A DNA stretch of 64,000 bases, taken from a virus. The stretch covers positions 110,396-174,395 of IMG/VR virus record IMGVR_UViG_3300005529_000024; one strand, given 5' to 3'. This document shows, piece after piece, positions 931 to 40,415 of the stretch (positions within the stretch are counted from its first letter, which is position 1; each line of letters starts with the position of its first letter). Below the pieces are notes generated by a model, which had not been told where the DNA came from, searched no databases, and saw only the letters and a program-made list of their open reading frames with translations. Made by a program: the position numbers and the translations under genes.

Positions 931-3173
931 TGGGGAAAGTAATGAAAGTACAGTCAGTTAGAAAACGTGATGGGAGAACAATCCCGTTCGATAAAAATAG
1001 GATTGTCAAGGCTATTACAAAATGTCTAGCAGCTACTAAAGAAGGCAATTCTGATGATGCGCTTAAATTAGCGAATAAGGTAGTGCGCGAGATCAATCAG
1101 AAGGAAGCGGAAGTTATAACCGTGGAAGAGATACAGGACATTGTAGAGAATACTCTGATCTTGTCTGATTTTGTTGTCACAGCTAAAGCCTATATCCTAT
1201 ACAGGCAGAAACGCGCTATCGTTCGAAAGAAGTCTAAGGATATACCTCAAAATGTCAAAGATCTTGTAAACGAAAGCAAGAAATATTTCAAGTCTCCATA
1301 TTCAGAGTTTATTTATTATCGCTCTTATTCTAGGTGGATTCCCTCTGAGAACAGAAGAGAGACATGGATTGAGACGGTTGATCGGTATGTAAATTTTATG
1401 CGTCAGAATCTTGCGGATAAACTGACTGAGCAAGAGTATACCGATATCAGAAATGCAATCTTGAACCAGGAAGTAATGCCGTCTATGCGTCTTTTCTGGA
1501 GTGCTGGTGAAGCTGCTTCGAAGACTAATACTACTGTGTTCAATTGTAGTTTTACGACAGTATCCAGTATTCGAGATTTTTGCGACATCCTCTATATTCT
1601 TATGTGCGGTTGCGGAGTAGGATTTAGCGTAGAACAGCAGCATATTCACAAACTACCTCAAATTGAGTGGCAGAAGAATGGCGAGGTACAGACTCATGTG
1701 GTTGATGATAGTAAAGAGGGATGGGCTAATGCATTTGAGGTTGGCCTAAAATGTTGGTTCTCTGGTGAGGATGTGGAATTTGATTTCTCTCAGGTAAGGC
1801 CAAATGGGACTCGTTTGAAGACCATGGGAGGTAAGGCTTCTGGTCCTGCACCATTGAAGTCTCTATTCTCTTTCACACGTAGTAAAATCCTTTCTAAACA
1901 GGGTCGTAGATTATCGTCTCTTGATGTGCATGACATTGTGTGTAAGATTGGGGAGATTGTTGTTACTGGAGGTGTACGAAGATCTGCGCTTCTATCCCTC
2001 TCTGATTTAGATGATCAGGAAATGCGTGTGGCGAAATCTGGTCAGTTTTATCTGACGGCGAGCCATAGATCATTTGCCAATAACTCTGTCGCATATAATT
2101 ATAAACCCTCGACTACAGAGTTCATGGATGAATGGATCGCACTTGCTAAAAGCGGTACTGGAGAGCGCGGTATTTTCAATCGTGGTAGTCTTCAAAAGCA
2201 AATGCCACAGCGTAGATGGAAGGGATTTAAAAAGGGTCTCTATAGTTCTGGTGTCAATCCTTGTGGTGAGATCATCCTAAAGTCAAAGGAAATGTGCAAT
2301 CTCTCTGAGGTTGTAGCCAAGCCAGATGATACTTTTGATAGCTTACTTTATAAGATTCGCTTGGCTACCATTGTCGGTACTTATCAGAGTACTTTAACAG
2401 ACTTCAAATATATCTCTCCAGAGTGGAAGAAGAACTGTGATGAAGAGCGTCTGTTGGGTGTTTCAATAACCGGACAATTCGATTGTGCTGTTCTTCGTGA
2501 TGCTGAGGTTCTGAAGAATCTTCGTGAGACTGCTATTGAGGTGAACAAAGAATATGCAAAGCGTTTTGGTATTAACGAATCTGTTGCGATTACAGCCATA
2601 AAACCATCTGGTAGCGTTAGTAGTCTTGTCGATGCGTCTTCAGGAATGCATCCACGTTACGCTAAATATTATATCCGGCGAGTTCGTATTGCTTCTACTG
2701 ACAGCTTGCTTAAGATGCTCCAGGATCAGGGATTCCCTGTCTTCCCGGATGTCGGCCAGAATCCAGAGACTTGTACTACCTATGTTCTTGAGTTTCCGAT
2801 GAAGGCACCAGAAGGATCTGTTACTCGTAACGATCTTACTGCTATCCAGCAGCTTGAATATTGGAAAATGCTGAAGGTTAACTATACAGAACATAATCCT
2901 AGCGTTACGATTCTCGTTTCTTCTAACGAGTGGATTGAGGTTGCTAATTGGGTGTATAATAATTGGGATATTATTGGTGGGGTGTCTTTCCTACCACGAG
3001 AGGAGCATAACTATATCCTTGCTCCCTATGAGGAAATTACAGAGGAGAAGTATAATGAGATGCTTCAGACTCTTCCTCAAGTAGATTTTTCCCAGATTCT
3101 GTTATATGAACAGGAAGATGAGACAGAAGGTCATAGAGAATTAGCCTGTGTCTCCGGTGTTTGTGAACTTTAA
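930..3173 (+). CDS. nrdJ: Class II (B12-dependent) ribonucleotide reductase with N-terminal ATP cone
   Basis: ATP cone (KRDGR...FDKNRI), NPCGEI, CNLSE, IKPSGSVS, C-terminal ACVSGVCEL; no beta subunit adjacent. Confidence 0.92.
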   Translation: MGKVMKVQSVRKRDGRTIPFDKNRIVKAITKCLAATKEGNSDDALKLANKVVREINQKEAEVITVEEIQDIVENTLILSDFVVTAKAYILYRQKRAIVRKKSKDIPQNVKDLVNESKKYFKSPYSEFIYYRSYSRWIPSENRRETWIETVDRYVNFMRQNLADKLTEQEYTDIRNAILNQEVMPSMRLFWSAGEAASKTNTTVFNCSFTTVSSIRDFCDILYILMCGCGVGFSVEQQHIHKLPQIEWQKNGEVQTHVVDDSKEGWANAFEVGLKCWFSGEDVEFDFSQVRPNGTRLKTMGGKASGPAPLKSLFSFTRSKILSKQGRRLSSLDVHDIVCKIGEIVVTGGVRRSALLSLSDLDDQEMRVAKSGQFYLTASHRSFANNSVAYNYKPSTTEFMDEWIALAKSGTGERGIFNRGSLQKQMPQRRWKGFKKGLYSSGVNPCGEIILKSKEMCNLSEVVAKPDDTFDSLLYKIRLATIVGTYQSTLTDFKYISPEWKKNCDEERLLGVSITGQFDCAVLRDAEVLKNLRETAIEVNKEYAKRFGINESVAITAIKPSGSVSSLVDASSGMHPRYAKYYIRRVRIASTDSLLKMLQDQGFPVFPDVGQNPETCTTYVLEFPMKAPEGSVTRNDLTAIQQLEYWKMLKVNYTEHNPSVTILVSSNEWIEVANWVYNNWDIIGGVSFLPREEHNYILAPYEEITEEKYNEMLQTLPQVDFSQILLYEQEDETEGHRELACVSGVCEL

Positions 3174-6081: not shown

Positions 6082-6597
6082 ATGGCTAAATATGAAGACA
6101 TACGGCAAATCTCCAATGCGAATTATGTTGTTAATATACCTTGGGATTATTTAGAAGAATGGCTTGATACCAATGAGCATAGATCTTATGGTATCGAGGT
6201 TGAGCCTGATTTTCAGAGAGCGCATGTCTGGGATGATGCCAAGCGTATCAAATATGTTGAGTTTTGTCTTCGTGGTGGAAGATCCAGCCTGAATATCTAT
6301 TGGAATTGTCCAGGTTGGATGATCGACTTTAAAGGCCCTTTGCAATTGGTTGATGGGCTGCAAAGGTTGACCGCTGTGAGGAAATTTTTGAGCAATGAAA
6401 TTCCTGCATTCGGACATTTTCATGATGAGTATACAGATAAGCTGAGTATGACTCGTTGTTATTTCCTTTTTTATATAAACGATCTTGCTTCACGAAAAGA
6501 TATCCTTCAGTGGTACTTAGATCTTAATGATGGTGGTGTTGTCCACACCACGGAGGAGCTTGAAAGGGTTAAGAAGCTATTGAGTGAAGCAAAGTAA
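6082..6597 (+). CDS. DUF262/ParB-like (GmrSD N-terminal) domain protein
   Basis: PDFQRAHVW and VDGLQRLTA motifs. Confidence 0.8.
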   Translation: MAKYEDIRQISNANYVVNIPWDYLEEWLDTNEHRSYGIEVEPDFQRAHVWDDAKRIKYVEFCLRGGRSSLNIYWNCPGWMIDFKGPLQLVDGLQRLTAVRKFLSNEIPAFGHFHDEYTDKLSMTRCYFLFYINDLASRKDILQWYLDLNDGGVVHTTEELERVKKLLSEAK

Positions 6598-10522: not shown

Positions 10523-12124
10523 ATGAAAAATAAATTAACAAAGTCTCAGAAAAGAATTTTATCCATATACATAAAGCTTTCTAAAAAGAATGGCGTCTAT
10601 CCATCCAGATCTGAACTTCTGCGCGAGGGTGTGAGCCGTGATCAAGTACGTTCTGCATTCGGGTCTTTGTCTCAATTAAAGAACGTGGCGTTTACTACAT
10701 ATCCGGATGTCTTTAAGGGCATTATCGATGAAACCTTGGTATCAGATGATGCGATCCAAAATTTAAAACAAGAAGTAAGGGGTTATAATAAATTTGTTAT
10801 AACCACAGCAATTGGTGGTGGTAAAGTTCATTCCAAGTTTCATTCGAGTCTGAAAAAGTATTGCGAGTTAAACAATGCAAAGCTCTTGATTCTGATGGCT
10901 GAAGATCCGGCATCGATCAGGAAATTTAAGATTCCAAATGGTCTTGAAGAAGAGCAGTTTGTTTTCTCTGATATCAAATTAAATTCAAATATCTTCATCT
11001 CTACAATTAAATTATCTGCTAAGCAAATCGATCCTATGACTGGATTGTCCAGGTTAGGAAAGCGCGAGGGATCGTTTATTTATGCATCTCCGAAGCAACG
11101 ATTAGTCTTCGTCCCGATAGGCTCTACTCTTCCTCACGCGATCATGACTACAGGAGCTATCACTCTCCCTGATTATCAGACTGAGCATTACATGAGCGAG
11201 CGTACAGCTTGGATTGCAAAACAAGACCATGTAATGGGCGCTGTAATTGTCGAGGTCGAGGATGAGGAGATCTACCACTTTAGACAGATTCAAGCAGAAA
11301 AGAATGGATCTTTTATAGATCTTGGGAAACAATACACAGAGAATGGCGTTATTGATGTAAGACCATCTGCGTTCATTCTTGGTGATTGGCATTCTGGTGA
11401 AACCGATCCAACAGCGAAAACTTCTTGGAAAGAAGTTGTTGATGCTGTAAAACCCAGAATCCTCGTTCTTCATGATGCTTTCAATGGTAAATCAATAAAT
11501 CATCATGAGAAGGGTCGTAAGATCAAGCGAGCGAAATTTTATCGTGATAATTTACTGTCGCTTAAAGATGAACTTAAAAAGTTTGCTGAAGATTTAAACG
11601 AACTGTCAACATGGGCTGATCAGGTAGTGATAGTTAAATCAAATCATGATGAGTTCTTAGAAGAGATTCTAGAAGATGGTCGGTATATAAACGATCCGAT
11701 AAACTTCGAAATTTGTACGAAACTAGCTTTAGCTATGCTGAATGGTTCATCACCATTACGAATTGGTGCTGAGATATCAGGCTTGTCAGCGACTAATATA
11801 GTGTGGCTCAAAAGGGATGATGATTTTGAAATCGCTCGTATCCAGTTAGGGGCACATGGAGATAAGGGGCCAAATGGAGCGAGAGGGAGTATAAAGAATC
11901 TTGAGTCATCCTATGGTAATTGTGTAATTGGTCACTCACATTCTCCTGGTATTCTAAGAGGATGCTGGCAAGTTGGAACAAGTAGTCTTTTTAATTTGGG
12001 ATATAACGTTGGTCCGTCATCCTGGTTGCATACAAGCTGTCTGTTGTACCATACAGGAGCACGTCAGTTAATACATTCTATTGAAGGTAGATGGAGATCT
12101 AAAAATGGAAATAAAGCTAGTTAA
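10523..12124 (+). CDS. Large phage metallophosphoesterase-domain protein
   Basis: GDWH, LHD, SNHD, AHGD, GHSHS motifs; likely start MKNK at 10523 (ORF track 10463). Confidence 0.7.
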   Translation: MKNKLTKSQKRILSIYIKLSKKNGVYPSRSELLREGVSRDQVRSAFGSLSQLKNVAFTTYPDVFKGIIDETLVSDDAIQNLKQEVRGYNKFVITTAIGGGKVHSKFHSSLKKYCELNNAKLLILMAEDPASIRKFKIPNGLEEEQFVFSDIKLNSNIFISTIKLSAKQIDPMTGLSRLGKREGSFIYASPKQRLVFVPIGSTLPHAIMTTGAITLPDYQTEHYMSERTAWIAKQDHVMGAVIVEVEDEEIYHFRQIQAEKNGSFIDLGKQYTENGVIDVRPSAFILGDWHSGETDPTAKTSWKEVVDAVKPRILVLHDAFNGKSINHHEKGRKIKRAKFYRDNLLSLKDELKKFAEDLNELSTWADQVVIVKSNHDEFLEEILEDGRYINDPINFEICTKLALAMLNGSSPLRIGAEISGLSATNIVWLKRDDDFEIARIQLGAHGDKGPNGARGSIKNLESSYGNCVIGHSHSPGILRGCWQVGTSSLFNLGYNVGPSSWLHTSCLLYHTGARQLIHSIEGRWRSKNGNKAS

Positions 12125-21319: not shown

Positions 21320-21348
21320 TTGACAAATTTATAAGATCCTGCTATACT
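21320..21348 (+). promoter_or_regulatory. sigma70-type promoter for the Y RNA array
   Basis: TTGACA-N17-TATACT, 16 nt upstream of unit 1. Confidence 0.85.
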
Positions 21349-21364
21349 ATAAAAAGTTTAAGAT

Positions 21365-21428
21365 TTGGTGGGTCGGAGTCAATGGGTTATCTTGGATAAT
21401 ACCCCATGACGAAAAAATTATCCACCAA
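21365..21428 (+). ncRNA. Y RNA-like unit 1 (minimal)
   Basis: TTGGTGG/CCACCAA terminal stem, GGGTCG paired with TTATCC (bulged C), inner stem GTCAATGGG/CCCATGAC followed by TTATC. Confidence 0.8.
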
Positions 21429-21434
21429 TAGGTT

Positions 21435-21509
21435 AGATGGGTCGCTGTTGATGGGTTATCAAACATATTATATTGATTAATCTCCCATTGACGACAAAAT
21501 TATCCATCT
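21435..21509 (+). ncRNA. Y RNA-like unit 2 (minimal)
   Basis: AGATGG/CCATCT terminal stem, GGGTCG/TTATCC, inner stem GTTGATGGG/CCCATTGAC then TTATC. Confidence 0.8.
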
Positions 21510-21515
21510 TTAAAT

Positions 21516-21644
21516 ATGTGGGTCGATTTTCAGTTGGTTATCGAATTTGAATCGAGAGACATGGGTTCGAATCCCATACGCTAGTTATGCTGGCGTTAGC
21601 TTAGTGGATAGAGCACTTTCCGACTGATACTAACTTATCCACAT
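21516..21644 (+). ncRNA. yrlA: YrlA-type Y RNA with circularly permuted tRNA-like domain (unit 3)
   Basis: ATGTGG/CCACAT, GGGTCG/TTATCC, TCAGTTGG/CCGACTGA; inside: T arm ATGGG-TTCGAAT-CCCAT, loop-closed 7-bp acceptor ACGCTAG/CTGGCGT, TA, D arm GCTT-AGTGGATA-GAGC. Confidence 0.9.
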
Positions 21645-21658
21645 TTAATTTAACAATT

Positions 21659-21724
21659 TAGCGGGTCGCCATTAGTCGATTATCGCCTGGAAAAATATTT
21701 CGATTAATACATACTAATCCGCTA
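21659..21724 (+). ncRNA. Y RNA-like unit 4 (minimal)
   Basis: TAGCGG/CCGCTA terminal stem, GGGTCG/TAATCC, inner stem ATTAGTCGA/TCGATTAAT then TTATC. Confidence 0.75.
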
Positions 21725-21733
21725 TTAAAAATC

Positions 21734-21840
21734 CCTAAGCTCAGTCGCTAAGCGTCTGAGAGGGTCGCCAAGCGTCCCGTCTTAGGTGAGATCCCGCATC
21801 CATGATAATATCTGCCCATATTGTCTGGATACCACCTCCT
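21734..21840 (+). ncRNA. Unassigned structured element after the Y RNA array (also contains CCTA-N14-GCGTCT at 21734-21757)
   Basis: Twin hairpins with repeated GTCGCYAAGCGTC enclosed by CCTAAG/CTTAGG; then a 13-bp hairpin followed by ACCACCTCCT. Confidence 0.45.
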
Positions 21841-21841
21841 C

Positions 21842-21883
21842 AAAATGGCATGATGGCCTATAAAGCTGTCATGCCATTTTTCT
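21842..21883 (+). terminator. Intrinsic terminator closing the ncRNA cluster
   Basis: AAAATGGCATGATGGC/GCTGTCATGCCATTTT 16-bp stem plus T run. Confidence 0.85.
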
Positions 21884-21967
21884 GTCTTTTTTCCGAAATT
21901 CTTATAAAAATCTTTATTCTTTACCAATTAATTTACCAAATAAGCTGGTTTTTAGTCTCCTTCTCTA

Positions 21968-21995
21968 TTGACAAAATAAATAATACTGATATAAT
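21968..21995 (+). promoter_or_regulatory. sigma70-type early promoter (conserved spacer class)
   Basis: TTGACA-AAATAAATAATACTGA-TATAAT. Confidence 0.8.
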
Positions 21996-23368: not shown

Positions 23369-23396
23369 TTGACAAAACAGATAATACTGATATACT
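23369..23396 (+). promoter_or_regulatory. sigma70-type early promoter (conserved spacer class)
   Basis: TTGACA-AAACAGATAATACTGA-TATACT. Confidence 0.8.
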
Positions 23397-26514: not shown

Positions 26515-26904
26515 ATGGAGTTAACAAAATTGGACATCTACCTTGACGATACAAGAGAACCTTTGGGAGAAGGTGTTGTATGGGTGACAAATTTTAGACA
26601 AGCTGCACGATTATTGTCTACTGGTAATGTCGAGTCCATATCATTAGATTATGACTTGAGCTACCAACCACTCTGTAGGGTTTGTCTCGTTAAATGTAGC
26701 TTTGAATGCGATTGTGACTGTCACAGTGAGCCGGGAACTGGTCTTGACGTAGTAGAACACATGATAAAGACTAATATCTGGCCATTAAGAATCTATATCC
26801 ATTCTAGCTCCCCAAAAGGTAGGGATCTCATGTTTGATAAGATCCTGTTACACGGACCATATAAAAAACATGATAGATTAAGGATGTATTTCGAATGCCC
26901 TTGA
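26515..26904 (+). CDS. Cyclic-phosphate-processing receiver-like domain protein
   Basis: YLDDTREP, ISLDYDL, GTGLDV, IHSSSPKG pattern. Confidence 0.7.
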   Translation: MELTKLDIYLDDTREPLGEGVVWVTNFRQAARLLSTGNVESISLDYDLSYQPLCRVCLVKCSFECDCDCHSEPGTGLDVVEHMIKTNIWPLRIYIHSSSPKGRDLMFDKILLHGPYKKHDRLRMYFECP

Positions 26905-30682: not shown

Positions 30683-30691
30683 TGCGGGTGA

Positions 30692-30712
30692 AAGTGGGTC
30701 AATTATCTACTT
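30692..30712 (+). promoter_or_regulatory. Y-RNA-mimic hairpin in Ro60 mRNA leader (putative autoregulatory operator)
   Basis: AAGTGGGT-CAATT-ATCTACTT hairpin containing GGGTC and TTATC as in the Y RNA units, 5 nt before the AAGGAG SD. Confidence 0.6.
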
Positions 30713-30730
30713 AATAAAAGGAGAGATCAA

Positions 30731-32317
30731 ATGGCGAAATACACAAAGCATTTCCAAACGAAGCAGACCAAACAAACTGAACCGATTCCCGGTAAGAACC
30801 AGGTGAAAAATAATGCTGGTGGTTATACGTTCAAGATTACCCCAGAGGCGCAGTTTAAGCGATTCTTGATTCTTGGTAGTGATGGTGGTAGTTATTATCA
30901 GACCGAGAATGACTTGACTGTTGAAAATGCTGAGAATGCAGTTGAGTTTATTAAGCAGGATGGCGTTATGGCAGTAAAGCTTATTGCTGAAATCTCAGAT
31001 CAGGGTAGAGCAGCTAAGAATTCACCGGCTATCTTTGCTCTGGCTCTTGTTTGTACATTCGGTAGCCCTGAAGCAAAAGCTTGCGCGTATAAGGCGATTC
31101 CTGTTGTGTGCCGTATCGGTACTCATATCTTTGAGTTTTGCCAGTACATTCAAGATCTTCGTGGGTGGAGCCGTGGGCTTAGAAAGGGTGTTGCTTCTTA
31201 CTTTGAGAAAAAGGTTGCTGATTCCAATCTGGCGCTTGACGTTATCAAGTATCGTCAGCGTGATGGTTGGACACATAAGGATGTTCTTCGTTTGTCTCAT
31301 CCTTCAATCAGCGGTAATGATGTCAACTCGGTTTTAAAGTGGGCTGTTGGTAAAGAGGTTACAGAGAAAAACGCGCTCATCAGTGCATTTGAACAGATTC
31401 AGAAGACGACCAATGTTAATGAGGCTGTTAAGCTGATTGAGGAGAATAACCTCCCTCGTGAAGCTGTTCCTACGGATCTGCTTAATTCTGCGGATATCTG
31501 GAATGCTTTGCTTGTTAAAATGCCGATGAAAGCCATGATCCGCAATCTTGGAAAAATGACTTCCATTAACCTTCTTAAGTCTAACTTTGGTGAACAGGAG
31601 AAGAGAGTTATTGCTTCTCTTACTAATGTAGAGGCTTTGAGCAAGGCACGTATCCATCCTCTGGATATCCTTGTTGCTCTTAAGATCTACAGTCAGGGTC
31701 ATAGTGAAAGAGGATCTCTCTCATGGCGTCCTGTTCCTGGTATTGTTGAAGCTTTGAATGAGGCTTTCTATCTTTCTTTCAAGAATGTAGCTCCACTTGG
31801 TAAGAACTTCCTTATCGGACTTGATGTCTCTGGGTCTATGTCTAGCCGTATTTCAGACAGCAATTCATTGACTTCACGTGAAGCAACTTCAGCTATTTCT
31901 CTGTTGCTGGCCCGGACTGAGAAGTCGGCAGAGGTGTTTGCTTTCTCTAACTCGTTCATGCCGTTGACTGTTCACAAGAATCTGAGCCTTGAGGGATTGA
32001 TGCGTAAGACAGAAAGTCTCCCATTCCAGGGTACTGATTGTGCTCTTCCAATGTTGCATGCTACCCGTAATAAGATTGACAACATTGATTGTTTCATCGT
32101 GTTAACCGATAGTGAAACGTGGGCTGGAAATATTCATCCTAGCCAAGCTTTACTTGATTATCGGAGACAGTTTAATCCGGAAGCCAAATTGATTGTTTTG
32201 GCAACTGTTCCTTCTGCTTTCACGATTGCTGATCCGACCGATGCAGGCTATTTGGATATCGCTGGATTCGATTCAAGCGTGTATTCGGTCATGCAAGAAT
32301 TCCTGAAAGGATGGTGA
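30731..32317 (+). CDS. rsr: Ro60/TROVE-domain ribonucleoprotein (Rsr) with vWA domain
   Basis: NNAGGY, RFLILGS, RGWSRGLRK, KYRQRDGWTHKDVLRLSHP, MIRNLGKM, vWA MIDAS DVSGSM, GTDCALPM, TDSETW. Confidence 0.95.
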   Translation: MAKYTKHFQTKQTKQTEPIPGKNQVKNNAGGYTFKITPEAQFKRFLILGSDGGSYYQTENDLTVENAENAVEFIKQDGVMAVKLIAEISDQGRAAKNSPAIFALALVCTFGSPEAKACAYKAIPVVCRIGTHIFEFCQYIQDLRGWSRGLRKGVASYFEKKVADSNLALDVIKYRQRDGWTHKDVLRLSHPSISGNDVNSVLKWAVGKEVTEKNALISAFEQIQKTTNVNEAVKLIEENNLPREAVPTDLLNSADIWNALLVKMPMKAMIRNLGKMTSINLLKSNFGEQEKRVIASLTNVEALSKARIHPLDILVALKIYSQGHSERGSLSWRPVPGIVEALNEAFYLSFKNVAPLGKNFLIGLDVSGSMSSRISDSNSLTSREATSAISLLLARTEKSAEVFAFSNSFMPLTVHKNLSLEGLMRKTESLPFQGTDCALPMLHATRNKIDNIDCFIVLTDSETWAGNIHPSQALLDYRRQFNPEAKLIVLATVPSAFTIADPTDAGYLDIAGFDSSVYSVMQEFLKGW

Positions 32318-32321
32318 TCAT

Positions 32322-33431
32322 ATGAGCACATTAAAAGTAGAGATCTGTAGAATTGATGGTGTGGAAAAGCATCCTAATGCCGATAGGCTGGATATTGTCA
32401 AGATTGCCGGTTGGCAATGTGTCACACAGAAAGATGCTTTTAAGGTAGGGGATTCCTGCGTCTACATACCGATTGACTCGATATTGCCCCTCGAAGTTGA
32501 GAGTAAGATCTTTGGTCCTGATTCTAAGATTAAGCTTGATAAATCTAGGGTCAGATCAATTAAACTTCGTGGTGCCATTTCACAGGGTATGGCTGTAAGA
32601 CCATCTACTCTCGGTATTCCTGATGATCAGGATGTTGGTACAGATGTTTCTGAGATTCTTGGCATTAAGAAATATGAACCGCCTACCAGGGAGGTGTCTC
32701 ATAACAGTCAGCTTAATCCTAAACCAAAGCGAAGCTGTAATCCTAATTTCAAGAAGTATACTGGTATCGAGAACTGGAAATGGTATCCAACACTTTTCGA
32801 TAGCACAGAAGAGGTCGTAGTTACAGAGAAGATTCATGGTACAAACTTCCGCTGTGGCTATATTCCTTACTGTGCAAATACTTGGTGGAAGAAGGTTCTG
32901 AAGTTTCTTCACCTTACACCTCAGTATGAGTTTGTGTATGGTAGCCACAATGTTCAGTTGCAGAATAAACTGCGCTATAAAGGCTACTACAGCAATAACG
33001 TGTATCTTAAAATCGCTAAGCAATATAACCTTGAGTCTGTTCTGAAGAACTTTCCTGGTTTTGTTGTATACGGGGAAATCTACGGTGATAGGATACAGAA
33101 GGGATATAATTACGGGTGTGGTACAGGAGAGCATAAGCTCGTTGTTTTTGATGTCATGCACGATGGCAGTTATCTAGACTTTCCTGTCTTTAGTGTTTTT
33201 TGTAATTTGAGACGGCTACCTATGGCCCCTGTTGTTTATCATGGCCCGTATGATGGCGATAAGATTCTGTCCCTTACCAAAGGCAATTCTGTTCTCTGTC
33301 CTGAGCAGAGGGTTCGTGAGGGAGTCGTTGTGAAACCATTAAAAGAACAGATAACATTTATGGGTAGAAAGATTTTAAAAGTCATCTCTGATGATTATCT
33401 GTTGAACAACGATAACACTGACTTTCATTAA
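32322..33431 (+). CDS. ATP-dependent RNA ligase (DRB0094/Rnl5-like) with N-terminal OB domain
   Basis: HPNADRL N-terminus, TEKIHGTN motif I, YGEIYG, FDV, REGVVVK, LKVIS. Confidence 0.9.
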   Translation: MSTLKVEICRIDGVEKHPNADRLDIVKIAGWQCVTQKDAFKVGDSCVYIPIDSILPLEVESKIFGPDSKIKLDKSRVRSIKLRGAISQGMAVRPSTLGIPDDQDVGTDVSEILGIKKYEPPTREVSHNSQLNPKPKRSCNPNFKKYTGIENWKWYPTLFDSTEEVVVTEKIHGTNFRCGYIPYCANTWWKKVLKFLHLTPQYEFVYGSHNVQLQNKLRYKGYYSNNVYLKIAKQYNLESVLKNFPGFVVYGEIYGDRIQKGYNYGCGTGEHKLVVFDVMHDGSYLDFPVFSVFCNLRRLPMAPVVYHGPYDGDKILSLTKGNSVLCPEQRVREGVVVKPLKEQITFMGRKILKVISDDYLLNNDNTDFH

Positions 33432-39139: not shown

Positions 39140-39790
39140 ATGAAACTCGTTGCTCTTTCTGACACTCACAACCAGCATAATAATATAGAGGTCCCGAATG
39201 GAGACATACTCGTTCATGCTGGCGATATCAGCTATCAGGGTAGATTCCAAGAGATAGCAGTATTCATAAAATGGTTTGCTGCTCAACCTCATCCTATCAA
39301 GATTCTCGTACCAGGTAATCATGATTTCCTGTTCGAACGTGATATGCCTACCGCGAGAAAACTGTGTGAGGAGAATAAGATTACGCTCTTGGTAAATGAA
39401 GGAGCGACAATTAGAGATCTCTTTGTTTGGGGTAGTCCTGCTGTGCCCTTCTTTATGAATTGGGCTTTTAATTATCAGCGTGGTGAAGATATCAAACGGT
39501 TTTGGAACCTCATCCCTTCTGATATCGATTTACTTATTACTCATGGTCCACCAAAAGGAATCCTTGATGAGATTGATGGACAGGAAGTAGGCTGTTGGGA
39601 TCTTCTGGAAGAGGTCCTTAATAGGATTAAACCAAAAGTTCATTTGTTTGGGCATATACATAAAAATGGAGGGCTGTCACTTACAATTGATGGAACGACA
39701 TTTTATAATGTGGCTATTTGTGACGAAACGTATAAAACAACAAATCCAGTAACTGTGATTGATATAGGGAGAGAAAAACATGGTGCGTAA
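39140..39790 (+). CDS. Metallophosphoesterase (MPPED/Rv0805-like)
   Basis: SDTH, HAGD, GNHD, THGPP, FGHIH. Confidence 0.88.
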   Translation: MKLVALSDTHNQHNNIEVPNGDILVHAGDISYQGRFQEIAVFIKWFAAQPHPIKILVPGNHDFLFERDMPTARKLCEENKITLLVNEGATIRDLFVWGSPAVPFFMNWAFNYQRGEDIKRFWNLIPSDIDLLITHGPPKGILDEIDGQEVGCWDLLEEVLNRIKPKVHLFGHIHKNGGLSLTIDGTTFYNVAICDETYKTTNPVTVIDIGREKHGA

Positions 39791-40415
39791 TGTTGAAGGG
39801 TTAAAATTTTTCTTAAAGAATACGATCTTTGATGTGGTTCTTTATGATACGGATGATCATAAGAAATATGCTGTCGCTGGTGGTGCTGTACGCGATTACC
39901 TGTCTAACAATCCGATTAAAGACATCGATATTTTCTGTGAAGATATTGAGGCAGAAGAATATATCCTGGATAGGCTTCAATCGTTAGCTGATTTCGGTCA
40001 TCCAGATATCGTCTACGTAAACCATAATGATTTCCTTTCTAACTATCGTATTGGGGAATATGCTGTTCAGATTATCCGGAACAAGTATTTCCCGCTTACT
40101 AATGATCCTAGTTTTCTAATTGAAGCATTTGACTTCACCATTTGTGGCGGTATGGTTCGTTTCGATGGTGAAGCATTCTTCCTTCCTACATTCTTCCAAG
40201 ACTGTCTCGCAAAACATCTTCGCATTCAAGTTATTACCTTCCCCTTGTCAACACTCGAACGTATGCAAAAATATATTCAACGAGGTTACACAGCATGCAA
40301 TGGTACTCTCCTGAGTATTGCAAAGAGTCTTCAAGGCTTGGATTACGATAATCCAGATGTCAACACTCTTGTCTTTTATCCGGATGGTACGCCTAGATTT
40401 TTCTCATACGATTAA
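39780..40415 (+). CDS. tRNA nucleotidyltransferase/poly(A) polymerase head-domain protein
   Basis: AGGAVRDYL, KDIDIF, FDFTI. Confidence 0.75.
   Translation: MVRNVEGLKFFLKNTIFDVVLYDTDDHKKYAVAGGAVRDYLSNNPIKDIDIFCEDIEAEEYILDRLQSLADFGHPDIVYVNHNDFLSNYRIGEYAVQIIRNKYFPLTNDPSFLIEAFDFTICGGMVRFDGEAFFLPTFFQDCLAKHLRIQVITFPLSTLERMQKYIQRGYTACNGTLLSIAKSLQGLDYDNPDVNTLVFYPDGTPRFFSYD

What the first reader, a model, noticed from the sequence alone, without database searches (positions are those of the whole stretch)
21320..21883. Phage-encoded tandem array of four Y RNAs, unlinked from its Ro60 gene
Seen: one sigma70 promoter (21320-21348) and one terminator (21842-21883) bracket four units at 21365, 21435, 21516 and 21659. 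Each unit has the order unique 6-7 bp closing stem, GGGTCG, inner stem, TTATC, variable domain, inner stem, A-rich linker, T(T/A)ATCC, closing stem. The closing and inner stems differ in sequence between units yet always pair, which is covariation within the array. Known: Ro60/Rsr binds Y RNA on a helix formed by the RNA 5' and 3' ends with a bulged C, and bacterial Y RNAs usually lie next to rsr. GGGUCG/UUAUCC gives that bulged-C helix. Inference: a polycistronic precursor is processed into four distinct Ro60 ligands (64, 75, 129 and 66 nt) with interchangeable effector domains. The array is 9 kb from rsr (30731) and uses a different promoter class, so the RNAs may be made before the phage Ro60 and could also load or titrate a host Rsr.
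Basis: partly seen in the sequence, partly recalled or inferred. Interest (0 to 1): 0.92.

Follow-up and report, generated by a model that had tools for sequence, protein, structure and literature searches.

The report
Four-gene Y RNA array in a phage
An uncultured T4-like soil phage carries four different small "Y RNA" genes in a row, the likely partners of the Ro60 RNA-binding ring protein it encodes 9 kb away; this is a good example of a many-RNA layout that is common in phages and that I did not find described in the papers I could search.

Summary
Four units (21365-21428, 21435-21509, 21516-21644, 21659-21724) lie between a near-consensus sigma-70 promoter and an intrinsic terminator. All share GGGUCG ... 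UUAUC ... U(U/A)AUCC, with unit-specific stems that pair. Their shared 5' pattern (GGGTCG, 8-12 nt, GNTTATC) occurs 4 times in the window against 0.02 expected.

A covariance model built only from other phages' units finds U1, U2 and U4 (55, 48 and 38 bits). U3 also carries a YrlA-type permuted tRNA-like domain. The stems covary strongly across 66 units from other phages.

TROVE (Ro60) genes are present in 20 of 31 records that carry such units, mostly within 1.5 kb. The 9 kb separation is unusual but not unique. The window's Ro60 is canonical (E 1e-116 to solved Ro60 structures).

One claim fails. Ro60 lies in the same early-gene region as the array, which is studded with the same promoter type.

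Phage Y RNAs and multi-Y-RNA precursors are published. What I did not find described in the papers I could search is arrays of 3-13 units, their interleaving with tRNA genes, and their likeness to nematode sbRNAs. This scan has already reported similar arrays on other phage DNA. No expression or binding data exist.

The parts
21320..21348 (+). Sigma-70-type promoter of the array (TTGACA-17-TATACT, extended -10 TG). The transcript probably starts near 21355.
   Evidence: 11 of 12 matches; the same promoter type recurs through the early region
21365..21428 (+). U1, a 64-nt short Y RNA: closing stem UUGGU/ACCAA, GGGUCG, inner stem, UUAUC, small loop, A-rich linker, UUAUCC
   Evidence: 55.0 bits, E 3e-12, with model R2, which holds no window sequence; fold
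21435..21509 (+). U2, a 75-nt short Y RNA with a 9-bp inner stem GUUGAUGGG/CCCAUUGAC
   Evidence: 48.2 bits with R2; Rfam nematode sbRNA model RF01656 gives 30.8 bits across U1/U2, below its threshold
21516..21644 (+). U3, a 129-nt YrlA-type Y RNA. Its tRNA-like domain spans 21561-21614: T arm 21561-21577, 7-bp hairpin 21579-21595, D arm 21599-21614.
   Evidence: 45.9 bits with R1, in whose training set it was not included; Rfam YrlA RF02553 gives 29.2 bits, E 3.5e-4, over the full model length but below the 69-bit threshold
21659..21724 (+). U4, a 66-nt short Y RNA. Its motifs diverge most: GAUUAUC and UAAUCC.
   Evidence: 37.9 bits, E 9e-8, with R2; fold
21729..21841 (+). Fifth structured element in the same transcription unit, function unknown. 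It folds as a three-way junction with two near-identical hairpins (N-U-CGC-YAA-GCG-U-N) followed by a 13-bp hairpin.
   Evidence: MFE -37.2 kcal/mol, z -4.2, 0 of 200 shuffles fold as well; no Rfam match; no copy found in IMG/VR by pattern
21842..21890 (+). Intrinsic terminator: 16-bp stem and T run
30690..30714 (+). Small hairpin in the Ro60 leader that repeats the GGGUC...UUAUC motif. It was reported by another agent of this scan.
   Evidence: Sequence; only a weak R1 match (8.4 bits, E 5.3); earlier finding e1-5659081
30731..32317 (+). Phage Ro60 (TROVE + Ro60-type vWA), the presumed protein partner
   Evidence: Pfam; E 5.6e-117 to 9nen, 3e-116 to 1yvp (Xenopus Ro60), 2e-106 to 2nvo (Deinococcus Rsr)
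32322..33431 (+). RNA ligase (PF09414 plus PHA02142 OB fold), starting 4 nt after Ro60. It suggests an RNA-repair context.

Best explanation
The locus is a stand-alone non-coding transcription unit of about 530 nt. It encodes four different Y RNAs, the RNA partners of the phage's own Ro60. Shown: each unit has a terminal helix formed by its 5' and 3' ends and containing GGGUCG paired to U(U/A)AUCC, then an asymmetric internal loop, then a second helix capped by UUAUC. Shown: this design is an RNA family that recurs with compensatory changes in many phages and some bacteria, usually beside a TROVE gene. Shown: one unit (U3) carries the permuted T-arm/hairpin/D-arm module of YrlA-type Y RNAs. 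Inferred: host sigma-70 RNA polymerase transcribes the array early in infection. Inferred: host endonucleases cut the 6-14-nt AU-rich spacers, and exonucleases trim back to the closing stems. Inferred: each RNA docks on the outer face of the Ro60 ring through the GGGUCG/UUAUCC helix, which stabilises it. Inferred: the RNAs then gate the ring or tether it to other factors, with U3 acting through tRNA mimicry (for example to PNPase or tRNA-handling enzymes) and U1, U2 and U4 through their short loops. This would give one protein four specificities. The RNA ligase directly downstream of Ro60 and the cyclic-phosphate-processing receiver gene 4 kb upstream suggest the particle serves RNA repair or surveillance during infection, possibly against host RNA-targeting defences.
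For: The anatomy is far beyond chance. Model R2, built from 30 units of other phages, scores U1, U2 and U4 at 55.0, 48.2 and 37.9 bits; nothing else in 64 kb scores above 13.3 bits. U3, not in the R1 training set, scores 45.9 bits and matches Rfam YrlA end to end at 29.2 bits. Covariation holds across 66 non-window units: 90.5% of cells are paired against 65.3% in shuffles and 38-47% when the partner is slid, and 16 of 19 pairs show changes on both sides. The same holds on the unfitted MAFFT alignment: 84.6% against 66.5%. The invariant G-U pairs would be C/A mismatches on the other strand, so the structure belongs to the + strand RNA. TROVE is present in 20 of 31 records that hold such units and in 8 of 11 complete ones. 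Units lie within about 1.5 kb of TROVE in most of these records. Other arrays also mix short units with 116-152-nt units that carry T and D loops. The window's Ro60 is canonical. Published precedent: phage YrlA RNAs; at least two Y RNAs in every bacterium studied; YrlA and YrlB of M. smegmatis processed from one precursor (PMC4201824); Thermus phage phiLo Ro60 binds two phage-encoded Y-like RNAs and forms complexes with host PNPase (PMC12135203).
Against: There is no expression, processing or binding evidence; no RNA run is listed for this DNA. No unit reaches the gathering score of any Rfam family. The published GNCGAA motif is imperfect in all four units: GUCGGA, GUCGCU, GUCGAU, GUCGCC. In U2 and U4 only one G-U pair follows the putative bulged C. 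The array is 9 kb from Ro60, whereas most family members are adjacent. The vertebrate Y_RNA model RF00019 gives no match. No close relative of this phage was found, so conservation of this particular array cannot be checked.
Confidence: 0.85

Rival explanations
1. The RNAs are Y-like, but their main target is the host's Ro60 (Rsr) or another host factor such as PNPase. On this reading they act as decoys or hijackers rather than as cofactors of the phage Ro60.
For: The array is a separate transcription unit 9 kb from the phage Ro60. Three phage records rated 100% complete (G007, G009, G021) carry one high-scoring unit (52-59 bits) but no TROVE, Ro60-type vWA or DUF2828 gene. Units of the same family occur in bacterial genomes. 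phiLo Y-like RNAs bind host PNPase on their own (PMC12135203).
Against: This phage does encode a canonical Ro60. That gene's leader repeats the docking motif (e1-5659081). In 20 of 31 records the RNA family travels with a TROVE gene. The host is unknown, so whether it has Rsr cannot be said. The two readings do not exclude each other.
Confidence: 0.1
2. The units are decayed tRNA genes or tRNA-array processing elements with no Ro60 function.
For: U3 holds T-arm and D-arm sequences. In other phages the units abut or interleave with tRNA genes. Some long units there embed an almost complete tRNA.
Against: ARAGORN and Rfam find no tRNA in the array. U1, U2 and U4 have no tRNA features. The conserved parts are the Y-type terminal helix and the UUAUC helix, and these are under compensatory selection. 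The order of the T and D arms in U3 is permuted, as in YrlA.
Confidence: 0.03
3. The repeats act at the DNA level (protein-binding sites, a recombination or replication element) or are chance hairpins, and are not RNA genes.
For: No transcript data exist.
Against: The four units sit between a near-consensus promoter and a strong terminator, with no ORF on that strand. The pairing uses invariant G-U pairs, so it is strand-specific. Unit sequences differ while pairing is kept. The pattern is 200-fold above chance.
Confidence: 0.02

Closest known systems
YrlA and YrlB of Salmonella Typhimurium and Mycobacterium smegmatis, and YrlA of mycobacteriophages (Chen et al. 2014, PMC4201824; Rfam RF02553)
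   Same: A Ro60 partner RNA with a terminal helix made by the 5' and 3' ends and a G-N-C-G... motif on the 5' strand. One RNA carries a permuted T-arm/stem/D-arm tRNA mimic (U3). It is accompanied by shorter Y RNAs without it. M. smegmatis makes two from one precursor. Phage-encoded examples are published.
   Different: There are four units rather than one or two. They form their own promoter-terminator unit 9 kb from Ro60, whereas the published search kept only RNAs within 4 kb. Both strands of the docking helix are conserved (GGGUCG/UUAUCC); in the Salmonella and M. smegmatis RNAs only the 5' strand is recognisable. A UUAUC-capped second helix is conserved. U3 reaches only 29 of the 69 bits needed for RF02553.
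Thermus phage phiLo Ro60 with Yrl1 and Yrl2 (PMC12135203; PDB 9KOP, 9L5Y)
   Same: A phage-encoded Ro60 together with more than one phage-encoded Y-like RNA. Binding and ternary complexes with host PNPase were shown there.
   Different: phiLo's Ro60 is only distantly related to this one (E 6e-5). Its two RNAs lie just upstream of the gene and were chosen by the CGAA motif. It has no four-unit array and no reported tRNA-like unit.
Deinococcus radiodurans Yrn1 and Yrn2 with Rsr and PNPase (RYPER)
   Same: Both strands of the Ro60-binding helix are retained. Several small RNAs are encoded in a cluster. A tRNA-like module is present in one of them. This is the functional model of tethering and gating.
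   Different: It is a cellular system encoded next to rsr and induced by UV. No sequence likeness was detected here.
Nematode stem-bulge RNAs (Rfam RF01656), which are Y RNA homologues
   Same: The consensus of the phage family and that of RF01656 share the blocks GG(G)UC(C)G.AG, UGGGUUAUC, CCCA and CAACUU..CCG. By my own by-eye count over the two printed consensus lines, about three quarters of the positions in those two arms are identical. Two phage units pass Rfam's own threshold (40.2 and 38.4 bits against 38). U1/U2 score 30.8 bits.
   Different: The window's units are below threshold. The vertebrate Y_RNA model RF00019 sees nothing. sbRNAs are eukaryotic polymerase III transcripts linked to DNA replication and mostly not found with Ro60 in vivo (PMC4726728). 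The likeness may be common descent or convergence on Ro60 binding.

Membership tests
Y RNA (functional class: small RNA bound by Ro60) | The 5' and 3' ends pair into a terminal helix that carries a conserved bulged or distorted Ro60-docking motif | tested here: met
   All four units form closing stem + GGGUCG/U(U/A)AUCC. The helix is kept by compensatory changes across the family. Whether the C is bulged or sits in a 1x1 loop remains open.
Y RNA (functional class: small RNA bound by Ro60) | Physical binding to Ro60, and dependence on Ro60 for stability | not testable with these tools
   Needs co-immunoprecipitation or EMSA.
Y RNA (functional class: small RNA bound by Ro60) | The genome encodes a Ro60 orthologue, usually close by | tested here: met
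   A canonical Ro60 lies at 30731-32317. It is in the same genome but 9.0 kb away, so 'close by' is not met. The family co-occurs with TROVE in 20 of 31 records.
Y RNA (functional class: small RNA bound by Ro60) | Accumulates as a discrete small RNA | not testable with these tools
   No RNA run is listed for this DNA.
Rfam RF02553 YrlA | Score at or above the gathering threshold (69 bits) | tested here: not met
   U3 scores 29.2 bits (E 3.5e-4 locally). U1, U2 and U4 give no match.
Rfam RF02553 YrlA | Permuted tRNA-like module (T arm, stem-loop, D arm) inside the Y helix | tested here: met
   Met for U3 only: GGGUUCGAAUCCC T arm, 7-bp hairpin, GCUUAGUGGAUAGAGC D arm, aligned over model positions 1-114.
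Rfam RF02553 YrlA | GNCGAAN0-1G motif on the 5' strand (Chen et al. 2014) | tested here: not met
   The units read GUCGGAG, GUCGCUG, GUCGAUU and GUCGCCA, so only GNCG is kept. Most relatives in other phages do have GUCGAAG.
Short two-helix Y-like RNA family of phages and bacteria defined here (models R1 and R2) | Significant score with a model that contains no window sequence | tested here: met
   R2 gives U1 55.0, U2 48.2 and U4 37.9 bits, with E 3e-12 to 9e-8. R2 does not find U3 because of its long insert; R1 does, at 45.9 bits.
Rfam RF01656 nematode sbRNA | Score at or above the gathering threshold (38 bits) | tested here: not met
   The window scores 30.8 bits, for an alignment that joins the U1 5' half to the U2 3' half. 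Two units of other phages do pass.

The most novel reading that the evidence does not exclude
The short units belong to a large, uncatalogued clade of phage and bacterial Y RNAs that is homologous in sequence to animal-type Y RNAs of the nematode sbRNA kind: the same docking helix on both strands, the same UGGGUUAUC/CCCA second helix and the same CAACUU linker. If so, the UUAUC module, so far tied to DNA replication in animals, is an old Ro60-linked feature. Phages would then move whole Ro60 + multi-Y-RNA modules between hosts, in arrays of up to 13 units interleaved with tRNA genes. Some phages would carry only the RNA, to exploit a host Ro60.
Probability: 0.3. Interest if true: 0.75.

Novelty: new variant of a known kind. 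Interest (0 to 1): 0.55.

Why it matters
Ro60 and its Y RNAs form a conserved RNA-surveillance particle whose role in bacteria, and even more in phages, is poorly understood. This locus suggests that a phage equips one Ro60 with a set of four different RNAs made from a dedicated early operon. The survey around it shows that such sets are the rule in Ro60-encoding phages, with 3-13 units that are often woven into tRNA clusters. That gives a testable model in which one ring protein is given many specificities by different RNAs. It also points to cultured test systems: Streptomyces BE-cluster phages such as Wofford carry unannotated units. Finally, it yields a covariance model that could annotate an RNA family absent from Rfam. 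The likeness to nematode sbRNAs bears on the open question of whether bacterial and animal Y RNAs share ancestry.

Tried and rejected
- Rfam at gathering thresholds finds nothing in the array.
- blastn of the array against 50,697 phage records gives no match.
- No close relatives of this phage were found. The portal protein gave none in IMG/VR or in metagenome contigs. Ro60 gave one locus at 41% identity. Orthologous arrays therefore could not be compared.
- Sequencing runs: no RNA holder is listed. The one DNA holder may be the source sample.
A 30-unit leave-out model (R2) was built instead.
- The weak model match at 10655-10710 lies inside a 553-aa ORF and is judged to be chance.
- The twin-hairpin pattern of the 21729-21841 element has no copy in IMG/VR.
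- A T4-type late promoter box near Ro60 is absent.
- DUF2828 and the Ro60-type vWA domain were sought as hidden Ro60-like genes in the TROVE-less phage records. None was found, but the DUF2828 control rang nowhere, so that negative is weak.
- The vertebrate Y_RNA model RF00019 gives no match in five phage records.
- The Sim et al. 2020 review (PMC10870794) is not held, and the supplementary tables of Chen et al. 2014 are not held. I therefore cannot exclude that some of these loci were listed there.

Full report
**What is there.** The window is the last 64 kb of a 174 kb IMG/VR record rated 82% complete. The phage has a T4-type portal. The one sequencing run that holds this DNA, possibly its source, is labelled soil metagenome.

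- At 21320-21348 lies TTGACA-17-TATACT with an extended -10 TG, 11 of 12 matches. At 21842-21880 lies a 16-bp terminator stem followed by a T run.
- Between them there is no + strand ORF of 50 aa or more.
- There are four units: U1 21365-21428, U2 21435-21509, U3 21516-21644 and U4 21659-21724.
- Each unit reads: unit-specific closing stem, GGGUCG, 2-4 nt, an 8-9-bp unit-specific inner stem ending in G(G/A)UUAUC, a variable part, the return strand of the inner stem, a 6-7-nt A/C-rich linker, U(U/A)AUCC, and the closing stem.
- The pattern GGGTCG-N8-12-GNTTATC occurs four times in the window, against 0.02 expected.
- These four units are the only confident matches to the family model in the window (filters off); a scan of the whole 174 kb record lists only U1, U2 and U4.
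- Each unit folds on its own with its two ends paired.

**Independent test that these are members of an RNA family.**
- I scanned IMG/VR with the units' shared motifs. This gave 58 loci, about what chance alone would give by my own rough estimate. About 40 of them, however, also had a closing stem and an inner stem, neither of which the pattern demanded.
- An alignment of 30 such units plus U1, U2 and U4 showed 84.6% paired cells, against 66.5% in shuffles and at most 50% when the partner was slid.
- The model built from it (R1) found U3, which was not in it, at 45.9 bits.
- R1 also found 87 units in the phage loci.
- On 66 non-window units, pairing was 90.5% against 65.3% in shuffles, and 16 of 19 pairs changed on both sides.
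- A second model (R2), made only from units of other phages, scored U1, U2 and U4 at 55.0, 48.2 and 37.9 bits. Nothing else in the window scored above 13.3 bits.
- The invariant G-U pairs make the structure specific to the + strand RNA.

**Identity.**
- U3 aligns end to end with Rfam YrlA at 29.2 bits, below the 69-bit threshold. It shows a canonical T arm (GGGUUCGAAUCCC), a 7-bp hairpin and a D arm, in the permuted order typical of YrlA.
- U1 and U2 resemble the nematode stem-bulge RNA model RF01656 (30.8 bits). Two units from other phages pass that family's own threshold.
- The vertebrate Y_RNA model sees nothing.
- The gene at 30731-32317 is a full-length Ro60: TROVE and Ro60-type vWA, with E about 1e-116 to animal Ro60 structures and 2e-106 to Deinococcus Rsr.
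- An RNA ligase follows it after 4 nt. A cyclic-phosphate-processing receiver domain gene lies at 26515-26904. A metallophosphoesterase lies at 39140-39790. The setting looks like RNA repair or surveillance.

**Linkage with Ro60 across phages.**
- TROVE is present in 20 of 31 records that hold a unit, and in 8 of 11 complete ones.
- Combining the coordinates, most arrays lie within 1.5 kb of TROVE, upstream, downstream or on both sides.
- Long separations do occur. In G012 three units lie 10.7 kb away and none is adjacent. Streptomyces BE-cluster phages (for example Wofford, NC_048722) have one unit at the head of a tRNA cluster, 9.2 kb from the Ro-like gene, plus two units just upstream of it. 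None of these is annotated.
- Unit counts per phage run from 1 to 13. L048 has 13 units in 2.3 kb directly before its Ro60.
- Arrays typically mix 64-82-nt units with 116-152-nt units that carry tRNA-like parts.
- Arrays often abut or alternate with real tRNA genes.
- The same RNA type occurs in bacterial genomes of several phyla, often two or three in tandem.
- Three phage records rated 100% complete have a unit but no TROVE, Ro60-type vWA or DUF2828 gene.

- The 'different promoter class' claim is not supported. The + strand gene run leading to Ro60 is punctuated by the same promoter type, at 23369, 26134, 26901, 28122 and, more weakly, 30422. No T4-type late box is nearby. The array and Ro60 are most simply both early.
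- The variable domains fall into two classes rather than being free-form.
- A fifth structured element (21729-21841, z -4.2) shares the transcription unit and is unexplained.
- Processing, binding and timing cannot be addressed, because no RNA data are listed.

**Mechanism proposed.**
- Shown: the anatomy, family membership, covariation, co-occurrence with TROVE, and a canonical Ro60 in the same genome.
- Inferred from published systems: the primary transcript is cut in the AU-rich spacers. M. smegmatis YrlA and YrlB come from one precursor (PMC4201824).
- Inferred: each RNA docks on Ro60 through its terminal helix and is stabilised by it.
- Inferred: the RNAs gate the ring or tether it to partners such as PNPase. 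This is shown for Deinococcus and, in vitro, for Thermus phage phiLo (PMC12135203).
- U3's 7-bp hairpin between the T and D arms may even make it an RNase P substrate, as with M. smegmatis YrlA. This is speculative.
- A counter-defence role is conceivable. A Ro60-like protein of phage Bas63, encoded next to tRNA genes, counters the Ppl defence system (bioRxiv 10.1101/2024.10.10.617714).

**Novelty.**
- Already published: phage Ro60, phage YrlA-type RNAs, two or more Y RNAs per organism, and a shared precursor.
- Not found in the papers I could search: dedicated arrays of three or more Y RNAs in phages, their weaving into tRNA clusters, orphan units in Ro60-less phages, and sequence-level likeness to sbRNAs. 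[quoted passage not shown]
- The key review and the 2014 supplementary tables were not available to me.
- Other agents of this scan have already reported similar arrays on other phage DNA, so this locus is one instance of a recurrent finding.
- I rate it a new variant of a known kind, of moderate interest.

Noticed in passing
window 21729-21841: A GC-richer 113-nt element lies between U4 and the terminator. It folds as a three-way junction with two near-identical hairpins (stem, U/U mismatch, CGC-YAA-GCG) followed by a 13-bp hairpin. MFE z-score is -4.2. It has no Rfam match and no copy in IMG/VR by pattern. It may be a fifth, different RNA of the operon.
   Followed up: partly
L012 8476-8542; L014 5358-5438; L041 461-538: Three phage records that CheckV rates 100% complete (43, 84 and 53 kb) each carry one high-scoring Y-like unit (52, 45 and 59 bits). 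None has a TROVE, Ro60-type vWA or DUF2828 gene, and no tRNA gene lies in the fetched stretch around the unit. These may be orphan Y RNAs that use a host Ro60.
   Followed up: partly
L048 774-3071 (TROVE starts near 3165): Thirteen Y-like units and one tRNA gene sit in 2.3 kb directly upstream of a phage Ro60. This is the longest array seen here.
   Followed up: partly
L048 1352-1412; L058 5083-5154: Some long units embed an almost complete, non-permuted tRNA (Rfam tRNA 56.8 and 47.1 bits) inside the Y-type helices. These look like Y RNA-tRNA chimeras.
   Followed up: no
L064 (Streptomyces phage Wofford NC_048722) 3035-3125, 11669-11786, 11791-11864: These are unannotated Y-like units in a cultured phage. 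One ends 1-2 nt before tRNA-Gly at the head of a tRNA cluster, 9.2 kb from the Ro-like gene. Two lie between tRNA-Asp and the Ro-like gene. The phage is a ready experimental system.
   Followed up: partly
L008 7983-8050; L033 10034-10103: Two phage Y-like units score above Rfam's gathering threshold for the nematode stem-bulge RNA family RF01656 (40.2 and 38.4 bits against 38).
   Followed up: partly
L109 1907-2174; L094 6971-7365; L099 123-746; L091, L073 (Sorangium): The same Y RNA type occurs, often two or three in tandem, in bacterial genomes and MAGs: Anaerolineae, Sorangium, Armatimonadota, Gemmatimonadota, Iamiaceae, Bryobacteraceae and Uhrbacteria. I did not check whether these stretches are prophages.
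   Followed up: no
L009 6088-6818: Y-like units alternate with two unusually long tRNA matches (6159-6286 and 6377-6505, about 128 nt each), in the order Y-tRNA-Y-tRNA-Y-Y.
   Followed up: no
window 26515-26904; 39140-39790; 39780-40415: There are RNA-repair-flavoured neighbours: a cREC_REC (cyclic-phosphate processing receiver) gene, a calcineurin-like phosphoesterase, and next to it a weak poly(A)-polymerase/CCA-type head-domain match (E 0.004, below threshold).
   Followed up: no
window 21968-21995: A perfect 12/12 sigma-70 consensus promoter with TG lies 80 nt after the array's terminator and starts the next run of small early genes.
   Followed up: no
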